From contig OZ252100.1 in the NCBI GenBank assembly GCA_965248435.1, forward strand, positions 192,001 to 256,000: a stretch of 64,000 nt of DNA, read 5' to 3'. Under the pieces are notes generated by a model, which made no database searches, was not told the DNA's origin, and worked only from the letters and a program-made list of their open reading frames with translations. Within the stretch, counting starts at the first letter, position 1; the number at the start of each line of letters is the position of its first letter. Positions 5,152-41,090 of this stretch are shown here, piece by piece. Origin of the DNA: Candidatus Latescibacterota bacterium (lineage in GTDB: Bacteria > Latescibacterota > UBA2968 > GCA-2709665). Made by a program: the position numbers and the translations under genes.

Positions 5152-6072
5152 GTGTCTGAGCTACCCCTTCTGCTCGTCCTCGCTGGACCGACAGCGACCG
5201 GCAAGACCAGAACCGGTATCGGCCTCGCCGAAGCATTGGATGGGGAGATCATCTCGGCGGATGCCCGGCAGATCTATCGCCACATGGATATCGGCACTGC
5301 CAAGCCGAATAAGGAGGAACGGGCGGACGCGTCTCACCATGTTATCGACGTGGCGAACCCGGATGAGACCTATAGCGCTGGACGCTACGCGAGAGAGGCT
5401 GCGGCCGCGATCGACGATGTGATCAAAAGGGGGCGATCTCCGATCGTAGTGGGGGGGTCGGGGTTTTATCTGGAAGCGCTGCTCAAAGGGTTCTCGCCGA
5501 TCCCCGAGGTTCCACCAGATATGAGGGCCGCCCTGCAGGAGCAGGCGAGGGCTGATCTGGAGGGTCTGTATCGTCGACTGATGGGGGTGGATCCCGAAAC
5601 GGCATCGCGCCTGAATGCGAACGATGCGCAGAGGATCGTGAGGGGGCTGGAAGTGTATGAAGCGACCGGCGAGAAGCTGTCGGACCTTCAAGCCCTTCCT
5701 CGAGCGCAATACGGATCCTGGAACGTCAAATCGTTCGGCCTGACGATGGATCGGGAAGCGCTCTATCGCAGGATCGAGGACCGAGTGGGGAGAATGATCG
5801 AAGCGGGGCTGATCGAAGAAGTGAAGGGCCTCCGAGAGATGGGATATGGTCCGGAACTGAACGCGCTGAATACGTTCGGTTACCGGGAGACGTTTTCTTA
5901 CCTGGATGGGCGGATGAGATTGGATGATGCGGTGGAGGAGATGAAGATGGAGACGCGGCGCTACGCCAAACGCCAGATGACCTGGTTCAGGCGGGATCGC
6001 GAGATCGCCTGGATTGATCCCACCACGCAGGACGCCCCTTCTGAGATCCTTCGCGTGCTGGAAAGGGGTTGA
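5152..6072 (+). CDS. miaA: tRNA dimethylallyltransferase
   Basis: GPTATGKT P-loop, IISADARQIYRHMDIGTAKP, VGGSGFY, TRRYAKRQMTWF; follows mutL. Confidence 0.97.
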   Translation: MSELPLLLVLAGPTATGKTRTGIGLAEALDGEIISADARQIYRHMDIGTAKPNKEERADASHHVIDVANPDETYSAGRYAREAAAAIDDVIKRGRSPIVVGGSGFYLEALLKGFSPIPEVPPDMRAALQEQARADLEGLYRRLMGVDPETASRLNANDAQRIVRGLEVYEATGEKLSDLQALPRAQYGSWNVKSFGLTMDREALYRRIEDRVGRMIEAGLIEEVKGLREMGYGPELNALNTFGYRETFSYLDGRMRLDDAVEEMKMETRRYAKRQMTWFRRDREIAWIDPTTQDAPSEILRVLERG

Positions 6073-6097
6073 CAGACCTGTAGGGACTGGCTAGATT
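6069..6097 (+). promoter_or_regulatory. Sigma-70-type promoter for tRNA-Gly
   Basis: TTGACA (6069-6074), 17-nt spacer, TAGATT (6092-6097), 13 nt upstream of the tRNA. Confidence 0.75.
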
Positions 6098-33599: not shown

Positions 33600-33954
33600 T
33601 CTTGAGGGGATTCTTCTCGCGAAGATGCCGCAAAATCAACGATGTCCGCGTCTTCAATGTAGGGAGTTGTCGCAACGCGCCGGATCTCTTTCATCTTAAG
33701 GAGGATGTCGGTGATCCTGTGCCCAGCCTCTACAATGTCTGGAGCCGCTCCCGTTCAGACCCATTCGGGTTTGACTTCGCCAGAAGGATGTCCGCCATTT
33801 CCATGATTACTGTCAGCGGCTGGTTGATTTCATGGGCGGCCGCACCGGCCGTTTGGGTCAGCACCCGCAATTTCTGAACCTCGTGGTGTGCCTCTTCAGC
33901 CTGTTTGATTTGTGAGATGTCCTCGGCGATCCCGGCGATATGTCTGAATCTCAC
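33600..33954 (-). pseudogene. Truncated, frameshifted PAC/HisKA-like signalling gene remnant
   Basis: GIAEDISQIKQAEE (PAC end) and AAHEINQPLTVI (H-box); stop at 33730, while an adjacent frame continues IVEAGHRITDILLKMKEIRRVATTPY. Confidence 0.6.
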
Positions 33955-34100
33955 AAGTTTACATAATGTATCTTATACTCCCTTTCAAGATGTGCCGCCA
34001 CGGGGCCGAATAAACCCCAACATCTTGTGTGCCAGAAATATAGACCAACGCCGTTTTTAAGTCAAGCACGTTTCCGTAACCGCGCCCGAATCAACCAGCG

Positions 34101-34304
34101 TTACGCGAGCTCCTCCAGCGAGGTTTCCGTCGGGGCGGTGGCTTTCGGTTTCGCTGCTGGGGTTCCGGGAATCGGAGAGCTTTCTTCCCACGTCGGATTA
34201 TCGCGGAGAAAACTCTGTGCTGACATACGGTACACTGTTCCATCGTCACAGACAACGATTGTCCACCCGTGTTGGTCCGTAGCGAGCCCGACTGGCTTTC
34301 TCAT
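34101..34304 (-). CDS. Small hypothetical protein (VVCDDGTVY..W..PIPG)
   Basis: GGAGGAGG RBS before ATG 34304; 67 aa. Confidence 0.65.
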   Translation of the reverse strand: MRKPVGLATDQHGWTIVVCDDGTVYRMSAQSFLRDNPTWEESSPIPGTPAAKPKATAPTETSLEELA

Positions 34305-34373
34305 TTTGCCTCCTCCTATGGGTAGGATGACACTACGCAAAAAAATTGTGGTTGGTTCGGTGCCGAGTGCTTT

Positions 34374-34598
34374 TTATCTCTTGGGTAGGTGGACGATGTC
34401 GCCCACGATGAGAAACCTTTCACCTTTCTGAAAATCAAGACTCATAGTAGGCTTCAGTTCAGCTCCCCTCGCCCAAATGTGGATACCGGCTTCGCCGCCA
34501 TCGCATTGGTATGTTACTCCGGGGTTTCCTTCACCGAAGCACTGTTCGAAGCTACCATTTGTCTGAATCCTCTCGCACCTAATGATTTCATGGTTCAC
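34374..34598 (-). CDS. Small hypothetical protein
   Basis: AAGGAG RBS 6 nt before GTG; 74 aa. Confidence 0.55.
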   Translation of the reverse strand: MNHEIIRCERIQTNGSFEQCFGEGNPGVTYQCDGGEAGIHIWARGAELKPTMSLDFQKGERFLIVGDIVHLPKR

Positions 34599-34616
34599 AG
34601 CAGACTCCTTTCAGGG

Positions 34617-34699
34617 TAAAAGAAAAGGAGGGCCCTCTACTTGAGGGCCCTCCCAACCTCAGTTGCTTAGAATGTAGGTCGAATCCCCATCCCCGTCAA
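34617..34699 (-). promoter_or_regulatory. Minus-strand promoter immediately followed by a terminator hairpin (short RNA or attenuator)
   Basis: TTGACG-N17-TACATT (34699-34671); 11-bp stem 34627-34653 followed by TTTTCTTTT on the minus strand. Confidence 0.65.
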
Positions 34700-34765
34700 G
34701 GGGCTAGATTCACCCGGTATTCCCCTGCTTTTCCGTGAACTCACCTATGCCTGCGAGGTTGAACC

Positions 34766-34794
34766 TTGACAAGGATGGCCTCCTGTTCTAGATT
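34766..34794 (+). promoter_or_regulatory. Sigma-70-type promoter for the candidate large ncRNA
   Basis: TTGACA-N17-TAGATT, the same hexamers and spacing as the tRNA-Gly promoter. Confidence 0.75.
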
Positions 34795-34800
34795 CGTTTC

Positions 34801-35293
34801 AGAACGTCTGTGATGCCCCCAGGGATAACGACCCGGGGTCCCAGCTTGCGATAAAGACGTAACGGAGTAGCCGTACACTCCCGCCAGCGGGAATGCAGAC
34901 GACCGGGTTGCCACTGCATTTGGCGGCTTAAGAGTCTGCCGACCGAAGGGACCTGGGCAACCTTGATGGGGATTCGTCGAACGCGGCTGAGTAGAGAGGC
35001 CGCCCGATGAACGATCGGACAGGACCCAAGGCAACTCTACGGTTTGGGCTTGCTCGATGCTCTGAACCTACGGCCGTAGGTGTCAGGGCGAAATTGGACC
35101 TCCGAATGCTTTCAAATGGTTCGGGACCGGTCCCGAACTTAATCATGGGAATTATCACAATGATTAGGTTCGAAATCCGGGTCAAGGTGAAGGGAAACTC
35201 AGTCGTCAAGTTGCTATTGGCGATTACAGCAGCCCTCTCGTTGGCCTAAAATGCCGGACGGCTGATCGTGCAGATCGGCCGTCCCTTTCTTTG
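34801..35293 (+). ncRNA. Candidate large structured ncRNA (~490 nt), family unassigned
   Basis: Own promoter and terminator, no credible ORF, about 11 predicted helices, a loop-loop pairing and a long-range closing stem. Confidence 0.6.
35256..35293 (+). terminator. Intrinsic terminator (plus strand)
   Basis: GGACGGCTGATC-GTGCA-GATCGGCCGTCC followed by CTTTCTTTG. Confidence 0.8.
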
Positions 35294-35345
35294 TTCCCTA
35301 CTCGGTTTCCCTTGATCTGAGCAGCTCATTGCGCAGTGTCCCCTA

Positions 35346-36020
35346 CTACAATGAGAGCATTTCCAATTCCAGTTTGGCTGTCCTTGCGTGCGACGTGTTT
35401 GAGTAGGTCTTTGTGATTCTCTTCAGAAGAAGGGCCTGTTTCTCCAAATCTCCGGCCAACCCGGAACACCTGGCAGCGTGCCTGAGGGCCAGCGGCGCAT
35501 AGGGCGAAGATTGATATGCATCCGCATAGGCGACGTAACTGGTAATCGCACCTGAGTAATCTTCCCGTTCCTCAAGGCAGGCGGCCACACCTGAAGTAGC
35601 CCCATATCCCAACGCGCCCCCATCGCCATAGGCGGCCAGGTATGTTTCATAGGCGGCCTGTGCCTCGGGAAATCGACCCAGTTCGAAGTAAAGATTTCCG
35701 AGTATGATCGTGGCGTGACCAGCCTCGGGGTTTCCTTTGTATTCAGCCGCGATGCTCTCTGCCTGCAGGATCGCCTCCCCCGTCTTTCCCTGATAGAGCG
35801 CGATCCGGACTTCACCGAACGCATCTATGACTTCATTCGCCTGTGTTTCAGATCGCTGTTGGAACAACGTAGCAATCAGGATGATGACCAGAACCGCCGC
35901 AGCGACCGCCAGGAGTTTAACATACTCCTTTTGGATGTAGCCCCAGATCTTCAGGGCCCAGATCAAGAATTCATCCTGTTTGATCTCTTTTCTGGTCAGT
36001 CGCTTTCTTGCTCTTTGCAT
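35346..36020 (-). CDS. Membrane-anchored tetratricopeptide repeat protein (YfgM-like)
   Basis: LTRKEIKQDEF N-terminus, one TM helix, TPR helices (LGNLYFELGRFPEAQAAY). Confidence 0.85.
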   Translation of the reverse strand: MQRARKRLTRKEIKQDEFLIWALKIWGYIQKEYVKLLAVAAAVLVIILIATLFQQRSETQANEVIDAFGEVRIALYQGKTGEAILQAESIAAEYKGNPEAGHATIILGNLYFELGRFPEAQAAYETYLAAYGDGGALGYGATSGVAACLEEREDYSGAITSYVAYADAYQSSPYAPLALRHAARCSGLAGDLEKQALLLKRITKTYSNTSHARTAKLELEMLSL

Positions 36021-36230: not shown

Positions 36231-37427
36231 CTACTGAAGCAGTGTGAGCGCGTTCTGCGGGACTGCGTTTGCCTGCGCAAGCAATGCCGTGCTGGACTGC
36301 ACGAGAATTTGATTGCGTGTGAAATCTGAGACCTCTTCCGCGACATCCGTGTCCCGGATGATAGACTCAGAGGCCTGCATGTTCTCGATAGACACGTTGT
36401 TGTTTGCGATCGTGTGTTCAAGTCTGTTTTGCTGGGCCCCGAGGTCTCCCCTCGTCCGGGAGACGATGTCAATCGACAGGTCCAGTGCGGAAATGGCGGC
36501 GCGGGCCCCAAGCAATGTGCTTAAAGATTGACCACTCAGATTCAACGTTGTGCCGCTCGCACTCAGGTCGTTGATATTGAGCTCTACCCGATCTACGACC
36601 TGGGCGTCCGGGCCGACCTGGATACTCCCCCCGACACCTTGATCCACGACGAGTACGCGCCCGTCCAGGTCTCCGTCCCGGTAGCCGTCCGATGCCGGGT
36701 TTGCGCCGGCGGCGGCTCTTCGACCAGACAAGACCAGCTGAATTCCAAGCCTGTCGAAATTCGCGACAACCGACGAACCGGACGCAACCACCCCACCCAG
36801 CGCGTCATTATCCAGCGCCGTCCCGATGTCTATGGTTTGAGAGGCGATCCCGTTGCCGAGTGTAATTTCATTGTCCGCGGTACTGGAGTCGATGAAAACG
36901 TAGGTTCCGGCCTCTGCCGCGGTCAGATTGACATCGACAACCCCGGTTGTTGTAGACGCGGTCGCGCTAGAGACGTCAACATCTTTATTGACCGTGTTTC
37001 CAAAGCCTTTCAATATGGTGTTGTCATTGTAGCTCGTGGAACTCGCGATCCTGTCGATCTCCGTGACCAGCTGAACGAATTCCGCATTGATGGCGTCCCG
37101 GTTGTTGTCATTGACCGTCGAGGACGCAGACTGCACAGCCAGTGTCCGCATCCTGATCAGCATGTCGCTGACTTCGTTCAGCGCCCCCTCAGCCGTCTGG
37201 ATCAGGTTGGACCCCTGCTCTGCGTTCCGGGTCCCCTGGACCAGCCCGCCGATTTGTGCGCGGAAGCCCTCAGATACGGTGAGCCCGGAGGGGTCATCTG
37301 CACCGCGGTTGATACGAAGACCAGAAGATAGCCTCTCTAGATTCGTTCCCAGCCCACGGCTGTTGATACCGAGGTGTCGCTGGGAATTCATGGCCATAAT
37401 GTTGTGGTTTACGATCAACGCCGACAT
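36231..37427 (-). CDS. fliC: Flagellin (paralog 1)
   Basis: N-terminal ERLSSGLRINRGADDPSGL..QTAEGAL; C-terminal RGDLGAQQNRLEH..ESIIRDTDVAEE..ALLAQAN. Confidence 0.93.
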   Translation of the reverse strand: MSALIVNHNIMAMNSQRHLGINSRGLGTNLERLSSGLRINRGADDPSGLTVSEGFRAQIGGLVQGTRNAEQGSNLIQTAEGALNEVSDMLIRMRTLAVQSASSTVNDNNRDAINAEFVQLVTEIDRIASSTSYNDNTILKGFGNTVNKDVDVSSATASTTTGVVDVNLTAAEAGTYVFIDSSTADNEITLGNGIASQTIDIGTALDNDALGGVVASGSSVVANFDRLGIQLVLSGRRAAAGANPASDGYRDGDLDGRVLVVDQGVGGSIQVGPDAQVVDRVELNINDLSASGTTLNLSGQSLSTLLGARAAISALDLSIDIVSRTRGDLGAQQNRLEHTIANNNVSIENMQASESIIRDTDVAEEVSDFTRNQILVQSSTALLAQANAVPQNALTLLQ

Positions 37428-37520
37428 GCCCAACCTCCTTGTGGGGGGCCTTAGACTACCAGTGTGTGCATCCGTGCTCAGGTCGTCAGTGTATCAAGTG
37501 ATACCAGTTCGTTTGTTTTA

Positions 37521-39899: not shown

Positions 39900-41090
39900 A
39901 TGCCAATCCGTATCAACAACAACATTCCTGCGATTAACTCGCAGCGAATCCTGAATATCACAAACCGGGATGTCAAACTCCGCGTGGAGCGACTCTCCTC
40001 CGGTTTGAGGGTCAACCGAGCGGCAGATGACGCAGCCGGTTTAAGCGTATCAGAAGGACTGCGTGGAGAAATCAGTGGATTTGCTCAGGGCATCAGAAAC
40101 TCTGAACAGGCCATTGACCTGGTGCAGACTGCCGAGGGCGCTCTCAGCGAGATGAGCGCCATCATACTCAGGATGCGTGAACTAGCGGTGCAATCTGCCT
40201 CGTCTACAGTGAATGACCAGAATCGGGAAGCGATCAACGCGGAATTTGCCCAGCTGGTAACCGAAATCGACCGGATCGCTCAGGTGACGAGCTACAACAA
40301 TACCGCTTTGCTGGCTGGGTTCGGAAATACGGTCGATGAAGCTACTTCTTCGGCGGTCACATCCAGTGCAACGACAGGCGTGGCCGATATTCAGATCAGT
40401 GGTGCGGGGGTTGGGAATTACACGTTCATAGATTCTTCTACGGGCGACAACGAAATCACATTGGGTAACGGGGTTGCATCTCAAACAATCGATGTCGGAC
40501 GAGCCCTGGACAACGATGGAGTTAGCGGCGTGGTGGCATCGGGCAGCGCAATCATCGCCAACTTCGACCGCCTCGGAATCCAGTTGACGTTAAGTGGGCA
40601 GCGCGCTGCTCAGGGTGTGACCCCGGCAACCGACGGATATCGCGATGGAGACCTGGATTCGGAAACCCTGGTTGTCAGCCAGGGCGCAGGCGGCGCCTTC
40701 CAGGTAGGGCCCGACGATACAGCGGTGCACCGGTTGCAGCTCAGCATATCAAGTATGCGTACATCTGACACGACTCTGAACCTGAGTGGATTATCGATAT
40801 CGTCACGCGCCTCTGCTCAAGGCGCCATCGGCTCGATCGATAACTCCATCAACCAGCTCAGCCGCACACGGGGTGACCTTGGGGCTATTCAGAATCGCCT
40901 CTCGACAAACATCAAGGCCAACGGGGTGATGCTGGAAAACGACCAGACTTCAGAATCGACGATTCGAGATGCAGACATTGCAGAGGAGGTTACTTCGTTC
41001 GCGCGAGGCCAGATTCTCATCCAGTCGGGTCTTGCAGCCTTCGCGCAGGCCAATATCACAGCCGCAACGGGTTTATCACTGCTCTCATAA
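39900..41090 (+). CDS. fliC: Flagellin (paralog 2)
   Basis: RINNNIPAINSQR, ERLSSGLRVNRAADDAAGL, RGDLGAIQNRL, ESTIRDADIAEE; central domain clearly homologous to paralog 1. Confidence 0.93.
   Translation: MPIRINNNIPAINSQRILNITNRDVKLRVERLSSGLRVNRAADDAAGLSVSEGLRGEISGFAQGIRNSEQAIDLVQTAEGALSEMSAIILRMRELAVQSASSTVNDQNREAINAEFAQLVTEIDRIAQVTSYNNTALLAGFGNTVDEATSSAVTSSATTGVADIQISGAGVGNYTFIDSSTGDNEITLGNGVASQTIDVGRALDNDGVSGVVASGSAIIANFDRLGIQLTLSGQRAAQGVTPATDGYRDGDLDSETLVVSQGAGGAFQVGPDDTAVHRLQLSISSMRTSDTTLNLSGLSISSRASAQGAIGSIDNSINQLSRTRGDLGAIQNRLSTNIKANGVMLENDQTSESTIRDADIAEEVTSFARGQILIQSGLAAFAQANITAATGLSLLS

What the first reader, a model, noticed from the sequence alone, without database searches (positions are those of the whole stretch)
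34766..35293. Candidate novel large, ornately structured ncRNA (~490 nt) with its own promoter and terminator
Seen: the promoter TTGACA-N17-TAGATT is identical in hexamers and spacing to the tRNA-Gly promoter. A plus-strand terminator lies at 35256-35293, both flanking genes are on the minus strand, and no credible ORF lies between. Nearly the whole length can pair: 34804-09/34855-60; 34862-65/34871-74; 34879-83/34888-92; 34895-900/34934-39 enclosing 34905-13/34921-29; 34983-88/34998-35003; 35004-08/35014-18; 35025-30/35043-48; 35059-71/35076-89; 35118-26/35131-39; 35140-46/35160-66; and a rod 35180-35246. The loops of two hairpins are complementary (GTAGAG 34991-96 with CTCTAC 35035-40, a kissing-loop candidate), and GACCCGG 34830-36 can close with CCGGGTC 35177-83. 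It lacks the hallmarks of tmRNA, RNase P RNA, SRP, group I/II introns and common riboswitches. Inference: a stand-alone structured RNA in the size class of OLE/ROOL/GOLLD/raiA RNAs, possibly undescribed.
Basis: partly seen in the sequence, partly recalled or inferred. Interest (0 to 1): 0.88.

Follow-up and report, generated by a model that had tools for sequence, protein, structure and literature searches.

The report
Orphan structured RNA gene candidate
A stretch of about 490 bases, found in only this one genome, has a strong promoter, a terminator and an unusually stable chain of six hairpins, so it is probably made as a non-coding RNA, but no relatives exist to test that.

Summary
The promoter TTGACA-N17-TAGATT (34766-34794) belongs to a class found 15 times in the genome against 0.27 expected, and 3 of those 15 sit in front of tRNA genes. 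A 12-bp intrinsic terminator lies at 35256-35293.

Only the 3' part (34973-35250) folds better than chance. It forms six abutting hairpins, with z -4.9 on the + strand against -1.8 on the - strand. None of 500 random genome windows is as stable, and it ranks first of 1,372 windows in this 64 kb. The 5' 170 nt (z -1.2) and the proposed closing stem are not above chance. The loop-loop complementarity is rare, seen in 1 of 200 shuffles.

I found no Rfam match. I also found no homolog in 168 genomes of the phylum, in phage or plasmid records, or by pattern scans of viral, genome and metagenome contigs.

The unit lies in a 1.36-kb orphan island that the same-genus genome lacks, so covariation cannot be tested. 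No RNA data were available.

Verdict: a plausible strain-specific non-coding RNA gene. It is not shown to belong to the OLE/ROOL/GOLLD/raiA class and it is unverifiable by comparison. Interest is moderate to low.

The parts
34766..34794 (+). Sigma-70-type promoter TTGACA-N17-TAGATT. The inferred start of transcription is near 34801.
   Evidence: 10 of 12 matches; 2 in the window against 0 in 100 shuffles; 15 in the genome against 0.27 expected from composition; 3 of 15 directly precede tRNA genes.
34801..34972 (+). 5' part of the putative transcript. It is a multibranch fold of low confidence and is not structured beyond chance.
   Evidence: z -1.24, 18 of 200 shuffles as stable; helix probabilities 0.13-0.65.
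34973..35011 (+). Hairpin H1 (7 + 6 bp), loop GAGUAGAGA. Its 3' arm pairs the AUG of ORF80.
   Evidence: pair probabilities 0.89 and 0.98.
35014..35058 (+). Hairpin H2 (5 + 4 + 6 bp), loop AACUCUAC. Six of its bases are complementary to the H1 loop (34991-96 with 35035-40).
   Evidence: probabilities 0.91-1.0; such loop-loop complementarity in 1 of 200 shuffles.
35059..35089 (+). Hairpin H3 (13 bp, one bulge) with the palindromic tetraloop GGCC. The core CCTACGGCCGTAGG is a perfect 14-nt palindrome.
   Evidence: probabilities 0.99-1.0. Sequence.
35096..35133 (+). Hairpin H4 (12 bp), loop GCUUUCAAAUG. Its 3' arm overlaps a perfect 20-nt palindrome (35119-35138).
   Evidence: probabilities 0.93-0.99. 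repeat I7.
35134..35172 (+). Hairpin H5 (13 bp).
   Evidence: probability 0.98.
35179..35247 (+). Hairpin H6, an interrupted rod.
   Evidence: probabilities 0.54-0.93.
35256..35293 (+). Intrinsic terminator with a 12-bp stem. It is possibly bidirectional, because on the - strand it follows the TPR gene and is itself followed by UUUU.
   Evidence: and the sequence.
35007..35249 (+). 80-codon ORF, the rival coding reading. A GAGAGG lies 7 nt upstream. Its start codon is paired in H1.
   Evidence: no relative, and not even called as a gene, in 5.8 billion proteins; the single hit is a repeat artefact; codon score 0.028 against 0.26 +/- 0.14 for real genes.
33986..35345 (.). Strain-specific island of about 1.36 kb. 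It holds the RNA unit and two orphan small ORFs.
   Evidence: in same-genus G001 the conserved element (L023 2945-2968) lies 30 nt from the TPR stop codon (L023 2999); both small proteins match only themselves.
34101..34598 (-). Two orphan small ORFs (74 aa at 34598-34374, 67 aa at 34304-34101), transcribed divergently from the RNA unit.
   Evidence: No Pfam, PHROG, PADLOC or NCBIfam match.
34626..34699 (-). A - strand promoter-like site (34699-34671, TTGACG-17-TACATT), followed at once by a - strand terminator hairpin (34654-34626), upstream of the 74-aa ORF.

Best explanation
This is an independent gene for a non-coding RNA of about 490 nt, on the + strand from about 34801 to about 35290, and it is specific to this strain or species.

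Transcription would start at a strong housekeeping-type promoter of the same exact class that drives three tRNA genes. It would end at an intrinsic terminator shared convergently with the TPR gene.

The first 170 nt or so are loosely folded. The last 280 nt or so form six abutting, well-defined hairpins. The loops of the first two can kiss, and two palindromic elements could in principle mediate self-association.

Inferred, not shown: the hairpin array makes a stable RNA that acts as a binding platform or decoy, for a protein or for another RNA. Its partner may be linked to the two orphan small proteins transcribed divergently from the same 1.36-kb island.

Shown: the promoter and terminator motifs and their statistics, the strand-specific thermodynamic signal, the absence of any homolog, and the island's absence from the nearest genome.

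Not shown: transcription, the ends of the RNA, the fold, and any function.
For: Promoter.
- There are 15 exact TTGACA-N17-TAGATT sites in the genome against 0.27 expected.
- 3 of the 15 are directly upstream of tRNA-Gly, tRNA-Phe and tRNA-Lys.
- There are 2 in the window against 0 in 100 shuffles.

Terminator.
- It has 12 pairs and a T-rich tail on the + strand.

Structure.
- The whole unit has z -5.31 with 0 of 100 shuffles as stable on the + strand, against z -2.06 on the - strand.
- The 3' part has z -4.88 with 0 of 200 on the + strand, against z -1.78 with 10 of 200 on the - strand.
- Against native genome sequence, 0 of 500 random 278-nt windows are as stable after GC regression, and 0 of 500 are as well defined: mean maximum pair probability 0.947 against 0.758 +/- 0.084.
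- The 3' part ranks first of 1,372 windows in the 64 kb on both strands.
- For the full 501 nt, 4 of 450 random windows are as stable.
- Loop-loop complementarity of 6 nt occurs in 1 of 200 shuffles.

Coding.
- ORF80 has no relative and was not called as a gene in the protein collection, although the neighbouring 74-aa and 67-aa ORFs were.
- Its start codon is paired in a hairpin of probability 0.89.
- Its codon score is at about the 5th percentile of real-gene segments.

Assembly.
- The region is contiguous and without variants in contigs of 4 runs. All are from one sample, which is possibly the source.
Against: - No homolog was found anywhere I searched, so there is no covariation and no sign of purifying selection.
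- The unit lies in an orphan island within a zone of gene loss and decay. A truncated HisKA ORF lies at 33954-33730. A 1,184-1,188-aa gene present in G004 and G005 is missing.
- The 5' third is not structured beyond chance.
- The thermodynamic outlier is the top of its distribution but not far from the next windows: residual z -3.3 against -2.8. A 5.7-Mb genome has tens of thousands of such windows.
- Two hairpins are perfect DNA palindromes including their loops (14 and 20 nt). That is more typical of DNA-level symmetry, or of recent template-switch mutation, than of long-selected RNA hairpins.
- An 80-codon ORF with a possible Shine-Dalgarno sequence spans the structured part and stops 7 nt before the terminator.
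Confidence: 0.45

Rival explanations
1. The region has no function. It would be young or relic DNA in a decaying, strain-specific island. The promoter and terminator may fire, but the transcript does nothing. The hairpins would be palindromes made by template-switch mutation, or left by a vanished mobile element.
For: - The whole 1.36-kb island is orphan. Both small proteins match only themselves in 5.8 billion proteins.
- It is absent at the syntenic site of same-genus G001.
- The neighbourhood shows decay: a truncated HisKA fragment and the loss of a 1,184-1,188-aa gene kept in G004 and G005.
- There are perfect 14- and 20-nt palindromes, and perfectly symmetric terminator arms (I5, I7, D7).
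- There is no homolog and so no sign of selection.
Against: - An exact match to a promoter class that is 55-fold over-represented in the genome is unlikely to be fortuitous.
- The structure signal is strand-specific, z -4.9 against -1.8, which plain DNA palindromes would not give.
- No terminal repeats or paralogs of a mobile element were found.
- No remnant of the lost 1,188-aa gene was found; the best tblastn E-value was 0.023 over 23 aa.
Confidence: 0.3
2. It is an mRNA for an 80-aa small protein (35007-35249). It would have a leader of about 205 nt and a start site masked by structure, so that translation is regulated.
For: - It is the only + strand ORF of 30 codons or more in the unit. 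It runs from just inside H1 to 7 nt before the terminator.
- GAGAGG lies 7 nt upstream of the ATG (sequence).
- Its codon score of 0.028 is not far below those of the neighbouring orphan ORFs, 0.13 and 0.08.
Against: - There is no relative in 5.8 billion proteins, and the gene was not called.
- The single phmmer hit among 1.84 billion representatives is a 23-residue match summed over a repeat protein.
- There is no Pfam, PHROG, PADLOC or NCBIfam match.
- The start codon is paired, and the whole coding stretch would be the most stably folded 278 nt of the window.
- The - strand of the same stretch carries two ORFs of 93 and 97 codons, so long open frames arise here by chance.
Confidence: 0.12
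3. It is a DNA-level element: an array of hairpins used as single-stranded DNA, such as a relic single-strand origin, transfer origin or recombination site of a lost plasmid or phage. On this reading it is not an RNA.
For: There are perfect palindromes, the location is island-like, and the hairpins abut one another.
Against: - There is no replication, relaxase, integrase or phage gene nearby. The Pfam, PHROG and PADLOC scans of the neighbours show only a conserved HTH_17 protein that is syntenic in the related genomes compared (G001, G004, G005, G006).
- There is no blastn match to 50,697 phage or 72,556 plasmid records.
- The array is bracketed exactly by a promoter and a terminator on the strand that folds.
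Confidence: 0.05

Closest known systems
Large 'ornate' bacterial ncRNAs: OLE, ROOL, GOLLD, raiA
   Same: It is a stand-alone unit of several hundred nt with many hairpins and no obvious coding role. It has a possible kissing loop and palindromic loop sequences. Passages of PMC12286853 describe kissing loops and palindromic tetranucleotides such as GGCC as intermolecular contacts in OLE and GOLLD.
   Different: - Those classes are conserved across many species and are supported by covariation. The raiA abstract in the listing (PMC12968392) speaks of over 2,700 species.
- ROOL and GOLLD lie in prophages near tRNA islands.
- Here there is one copy in one genome, no prophage genes and no model match.
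- Only about 280 nt are structured, as a simple string of hairpins rather than multi-junction domains.
- The GGCC here is a 4-nt loop, too small to kiss as such.
Strain-specific (orphan) bacterial small or medium RNAs encoded in genomic islands
   Same: It has its own sigma-70-type promoter, an intrinsic terminator and an intergenic position. It lies in an island with small orphan ORFs and has no conservation outside the strain. That description of this class comes from my general knowledge, not from a call.
   Different: At about 490 nt it is longer than typical sRNAs. No target or chaperone-binding features were identified. The duplex screen against five neighbouring translation-initiation regions gave nothing.
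Type I toxin mRNAs (hok-like)
   Same: It is a transcript of several hundred nt, highly structured, with a masked start codon and a small ORF that has hydrophobic stretches. The features of hok-like mRNAs are recalled, not taken from a call.
   Different: ORF80 is longer than typical type I toxins and has no clear transmembrane helix. No antisense promoter was found within the unit. No family match was found.

Membership tests
OLE RNA (Rfam RF01071) | Match to the family covariance model | tested here: not met
   0 matches at E <= 1 in the whole genome. The controls also rang in 0 of 14 genomes, so the negative is weak on its own; no OLE match at E <= 10 on 34600-35400 with all 4,227 Rfam models.
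ROOL RNA (Rfam RF03087) | Match to the family covariance model; prophage or tRNA-island context | tested here: not met
   0 matches at E <= 1 (controls rang in 0 of 14); none. No PHROG matches for the island ORFs. The only tRNA in the window is 28 kb away.
raiA motif RNA (Rfam RF03072) | Match to the family covariance model | tested here: not met
   0 matches at E <= 1 in the genome; none in the region.
GOLLD RNA | Match to the family covariance model; often over 800 nt; prophage context | tested here: not met
   no match at E <= 10 with all Rfam 15 models. I assume GOLLD is among them. The accession I recalled (RF01998) proved to be another family, group-II-D1D4-1, so there was no family-specific genome search. 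The unit is about 490 nt, and there are no phage genes.
RNase P RNA / tmRNA | Model match; one essential copy per genome | tested here: not met
   RNase P RNA lies at C1:1134632-1135012 (303 bits) and tmRNA at C1:3129673-3130034 (206 bits), both elsewhere. ARAGORN finds no tmRNA in the window.
Any conserved structured RNA class (general criterion) | Homologs in other genomes that show compensatory base changes | tested here: not met
   - BLAST: 0 of 40 relatives. In 167 other genomes of the phylum there were only two 31-33-nt matches at E 0.004-0.009.
- Covariance models R1 and R2: best foreign E-values 0.03-0.09 per genome in 150 genomes each.
- The reach beyond the phylum was limited to exact-pattern scans and blastn against phage and plasmid records.
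Independent transcription unit (RNA gene) | Promoter and terminator on the same strand; a detected transcript | tested here: inconclusive
   The motifs are present and statistically supported. No RNA run is listed for this sequence, so transcription is untested.

The most novel reading that the evidence does not exclude
This could be a young, lineage-restricted large structured RNA of a new class. A chain of six hairpins would be held by an intramolecular kissing loop (34991-96 with 35035-40). Palindromic elements (the GGCC loop of H3 and the 20-nt palindrome at 35119-35138) would let it self-associate, as OLE and GOLLD do. It would work together with the two orphan small proteins encoded divergently in the same island. 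If so, it would be a rare view of an 'ornate' RNA near its evolutionary origin.
Probability: 0.1. Interest if true: 0.65.

Novelty: new member of a known kind. Interest (0 to 1): 0.3.

Why it matters
If the RNA is transcribed and folded as predicted, it would be an orphan RNA gene of about 0.5 kb. It would have unusually strong and well-defined structure and would sit in a recently gained island. That would bear on how new structured RNAs arise, for example from palindromes made by template switching, and on what strain-specific RNAs do.

As it stands it is one sequence in one uncultured-looking genome. It cannot be checked by comparative analysis, so its value is as a target for a simple transcript test, not as a new RNA class.

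Tried and rejected
- Known RNA families: Rfam at gathering and at E <= 10 gave nothing for the region. OLE, ROOL and raiA were not found in the genome. RNase P RNA and tmRNA lie elsewhere. ARAGORN found only tRNA-Gly.
- Paralogs in the own genome: blastn with word size 7 and nhmmer found none. The hits below E 1 are self-inverted matches inside the unit.
- Homologs by BLAST: 0 of 40 relatives. Across the 168 genomes of the phylum, apart from the query's own genome only two short chance-level matches turned up.
- Homologs by two single-sequence covariance models built on the predicted fold: nothing credible in 150 genomes each. The best foreign match (G165, 28.9 bits) lies in 73% G+C sequence with mismatched helices.
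- Phage and plasmid records, blastn 'distant': no match.
- Exact two-anchor pattern of the two kissing loops: 1 hit in genome contigs (L035) and 1 in metagenome contigs (L036). Neither matched model R1 at that place, so both are chance. There were 0 hits in viral contigs for this pattern and for two hairpin strings.
- Remnant of the 1,184-1,188-aa gene that G004 and G005 have at this site: tblastn gave a best E of 0.023 over 23 aa, so this was rejected.
- The - strand ORFs of 97 and 93 codons: no Pfam match, negative codon scores and R/S/P-rich translations. They were rejected as genes.
- Target search by duplex folding of the RNA against five neighbouring translation-initiation regions: no duplex beat the shuffles convincingly (best z -1.5, 17 of 200). 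The method is crude.
- CsrB-like sponge idea: I saw no repeated GGA loop motif. This was an inspection of the loops listed, not a test.
- tRNA-like T-arm idea for GGTTCGAAATCC: it does not pair as a T-arm, and neither the tRNA model nor ARAGORN matched.
- Expression: no RNA holder is listed for this sequence. There are 4 runs of one sample and one study, kind not on record. The contigs of those runs cover the region without variants. This says nothing on expression.
- Two other exact-promoter sites without a downstream SD-ORF (C1:4197666 +, C1:5267159 -): no Rfam match and no terminator. I dropped them.
- The organism's name and phylum were not determined. Supplements of the papers were not consulted.

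Full report
**What is there**

The window between the 74-aa ORF (34598-34374, - strand) and the TPR gene (36020-35346, - strand) holds a + strand unit. It consists of a promoter-like site TTGACA-17-TAGATT at 34766-34794 and a terminator-like hairpin at 35256-35284 with a T-rich tail.

The promoter is not a casual consensus match.
- The exact pattern occurs twice in the 64-kb window (the other copy is at 6069-6097, 13 nt before tRNA-Gly) against 0 in 100 shuffles.
- It occurs 15 times in the 5.67-Mb genome against 0.27 expected from base composition.
- Three of the 15 directly precede tRNA genes (Gly, Phe, Lys). Most of the others precede ORFs with a Shine-Dalgarno sequence.

I therefore take + strand transcription from about 34801 as likely. 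No RNA data exist to show it: the 4 runs that hold the sequence are of one sample and none is on record as RNA.

**How much structure**

- The whole 501 nt folds at -208.7 kcal/mol, z -5.31 with 0 of 100 shuffles as stable, against z -2.06 for the - strand.
- Splitting it shows where the signal lies. The 5' part (34801-34972) has z -1.24 with 18 of 200 shuffles as stable. The 3' part (34973-35250) has z -4.88 with 0 of 200 on the + strand, against z -1.78 with 10 of 200 on the - strand.
- The 3' part is six abutting hairpins (H1-H6). Five of them (H1-H5) have pair probabilities of 0.89-1.0.
- Against native sequence rather than shuffles, 4 of 450 random 501-nt genome windows are as stable as the whole unit. 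For the 3' part, 0 of 500 random 278-nt windows are as stable and 0 of 500 are as well defined: 0.947 against 0.758 +/- 0.084.
- The central 278 nt of this genome's RNase P RNA and tmRNA score lower on both measures.
- In a scan of the window on both strands, the 3' part ranks first of 1,372 windows. The margin is modest: residual z -3.3 against -2.8 for the next independent window.

**The tertiary claims**

- The two loops GAGUAGAGA (H1) and AACUCUAC (H2) share 6 complementary bases. Among 200 dinucleotide shuffles folded the same way, 1 had a loop-loop complement of 6 or more. This is a post-hoc test but not a trivial result.
- H1 and H2 are neighbours of similar length, so a tip-to-tip contact is geometrically conceivable. 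That is my inference.
- The 7-nt 'closing stem' is at chance level: 57 of 200 shuffles have as many 7-nt complements.
- Two hairpin cores are perfect DNA palindromes including their centres, 14 nt at H3 and 20 nt at 35119-35138. This can be read as possible self-association sites, or as a mark of DNA-level or recent mutational origin.

**What it is not**

- No Rfam family matches at gathering score. At E <= 10 there were 7 hits of 12.7-17.3 bits, all far below their cut-offs.
- OLE, ROOL and raiA models find nothing in the genome. For OLE and ROOL the control genomes were also silent, so those negatives are weak.
- RNase P RNA and tmRNA lie elsewhere.
- It is single-copy.

**Coding potential**

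The only sizeable + strand ORF is 80 codons (35007-35249). It almost coincides with the structured part and ends 7 nt before the terminator.

- It has no relative, and is not even present as a called gene in the 5.8-billion-protein collection, although the two neighbouring orphan ORFs are.
- The single phmmer hit among 1.84 billion representatives is a 23-residue match repeated many times in a 2,283-aa repeat protein.
- Its ATG is paired in H1.
- Its codon score (0.028) lies near the 5th percentile of 80-codon pieces of long genes, which average 0.26 +/- 0.14.
- The opposite strand carries open frames of 93 and 97 codons, so long ORFs arise here by chance.

Coding is unlikely but not excluded.

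**Context and conservation**

- Synteny with relatives is GcvT, then an HTH_17 protein, then a 20-32-nt element conserved at 94-100% (window 33954-33985), then a variable segment, then the TPR gene, then flagellin.
- In the same-genus genome G001 the conserved element lies 30 nt from the TPR stop codon. The whole 1.36 kb from 33986 to 35345, which holds the RNA unit and two small - strand ORFs, is therefore absent there.
- G004 and G005 instead carry a 1,184-1,188-aa beta-propeller/FG-GAP gene at this place, and G004 carries one more gene besides. No remnant of that gene is detectable in the window.
- Both small ORFs of the island match only themselves among 5.8 billion proteins. They match no Pfam, PHROG, PADLOC or NCBIfam model.
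- The RNA has no BLAST relative in 40 close relatives or in the 168 genomes held for the phylum.
- Two covariance models built from the predicted fold of H1-H3 and H4-H6 find nothing credible in 150 genomes each.
- Phage and plasmid records, and exact-pattern scans of viral, genome and metagenome contigs, gave nothing but two chance hits.
- The word index of public runs finds the sequence only in 4 runs of one sample. Contigs of those runs cover the locus without variants.

**Reading**

The best-supported explanation (confidence about 0.45) is a strain-specific, independently transcribed non-coding RNA of about 490 nt. Its 3' 280 nt form a very stable hairpin array. A function as a stable binding platform or decoy, perhaps tied to the divergently transcribed orphan small proteins, is inference only.

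The main rival (about 0.3) is that this is functionless young or relic DNA in a decaying island whose palindromes happen to fold well. A small-protein mRNA (about 0.12) and a DNA-level hairpin element (about 0.05) remain possible.

Membership in the OLE/ROOL/GOLLD/raiA kind is not supported. The unit resembles them in size class and in having a possible kissing loop and palindromic loops. Those features are described for OLE and GOLLD in passages of PMC12286853. It fails the defining tests of model match and conservation.

**Limits**

- Searches beyond the phylum were restricted to exact patterns and to phage and plasmid BLAST.
- The covariance models came from one sequence and a predicted fold.
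- The organism's name and phylum are unknown to me.
- From the literature I saw one search listing with abstracts and passages of one paper. I did not see any supplements.

Noticed in passing
window 33954-33985 (also L023 2945-2968, L024 1432-1463, L025 810-834, L026 3019-3048): This is a 20-nt invariant core (GTTTACATAATGTATCTTAT) inside a 25-32-nt element. It is kept at 94-100% identity across four genera while both flanks diverge completely. It sits immediately upstream of a - strand ORF and marks the left edge of the variable segment. It holds a short palindrome (TACAT-A-ATGTA), so it may be an operator or promoter. A second organism in the same sample carries it with one mismatch.
   Followed up: partly
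window 33730-33954 (- strand): A 74-aa ORF with a partial HisKA domain (E 6e-6, profile positions 3-41 of 66) stops in mid-domain. It looks like a truncated histidine-kinase remnant. Its codon score is gene-like, 0.28.
   Followed up: partly
L024 2694-6248 and L025 892-4458 (- strand): G004 and G005 carry a 1,184-1,188-aa gene downstream of the TPR gene; Pfam on the G005 protein finds PQQ_2/FG-GAP beta-propeller domains. G000 and G001 lack that gene, and the G000 genome has no homolog of it.
   Followed up: partly
window 34626-34699 (- strand): A strong intrinsic terminator (12 bp, tail TTTCTTTTAC) lies only about 10 nt downstream of a promoter-like site and just upstream of the Shine-Dalgarno sequence of the 74-aa ORF. 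It could be a leader terminator or attenuator, or the end of an unseen - strand transcript antisense to the RNA unit.
   Followed up: no
window 34680-34691 and 34965-34976: This is a perfect 12-nt inverted repeat (CGAATCCCCATC / GATGGGGATTCG). One copy is in the spacer of the - strand promoter-like site and the other is inside the RNA unit (I3). By my rough estimate it would arise by chance in about 7% of cases in 1.5 kb.
   Followed up: no
G000 C1:1650564-1651747, 5500190-5500935, 1554704-1557263, and window about 40172-40657: Several flagellin paralogs at 65-68% DNA identity to the flagellin gene at window 36231-37433.
   Followed up: no
G000 C1:4197666 (+) and C1:5267159 (-): These are two more exact TTGACA-N17-TAGATT sites with no Shine-Dalgarno ORF of 50 or more codons starting within 500 nt downstream. 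I found no Rfam match at E <= 0.1 and no terminator in the roughly 0.8-0.9 kb downstream that I fetched.
   Followed up: partly
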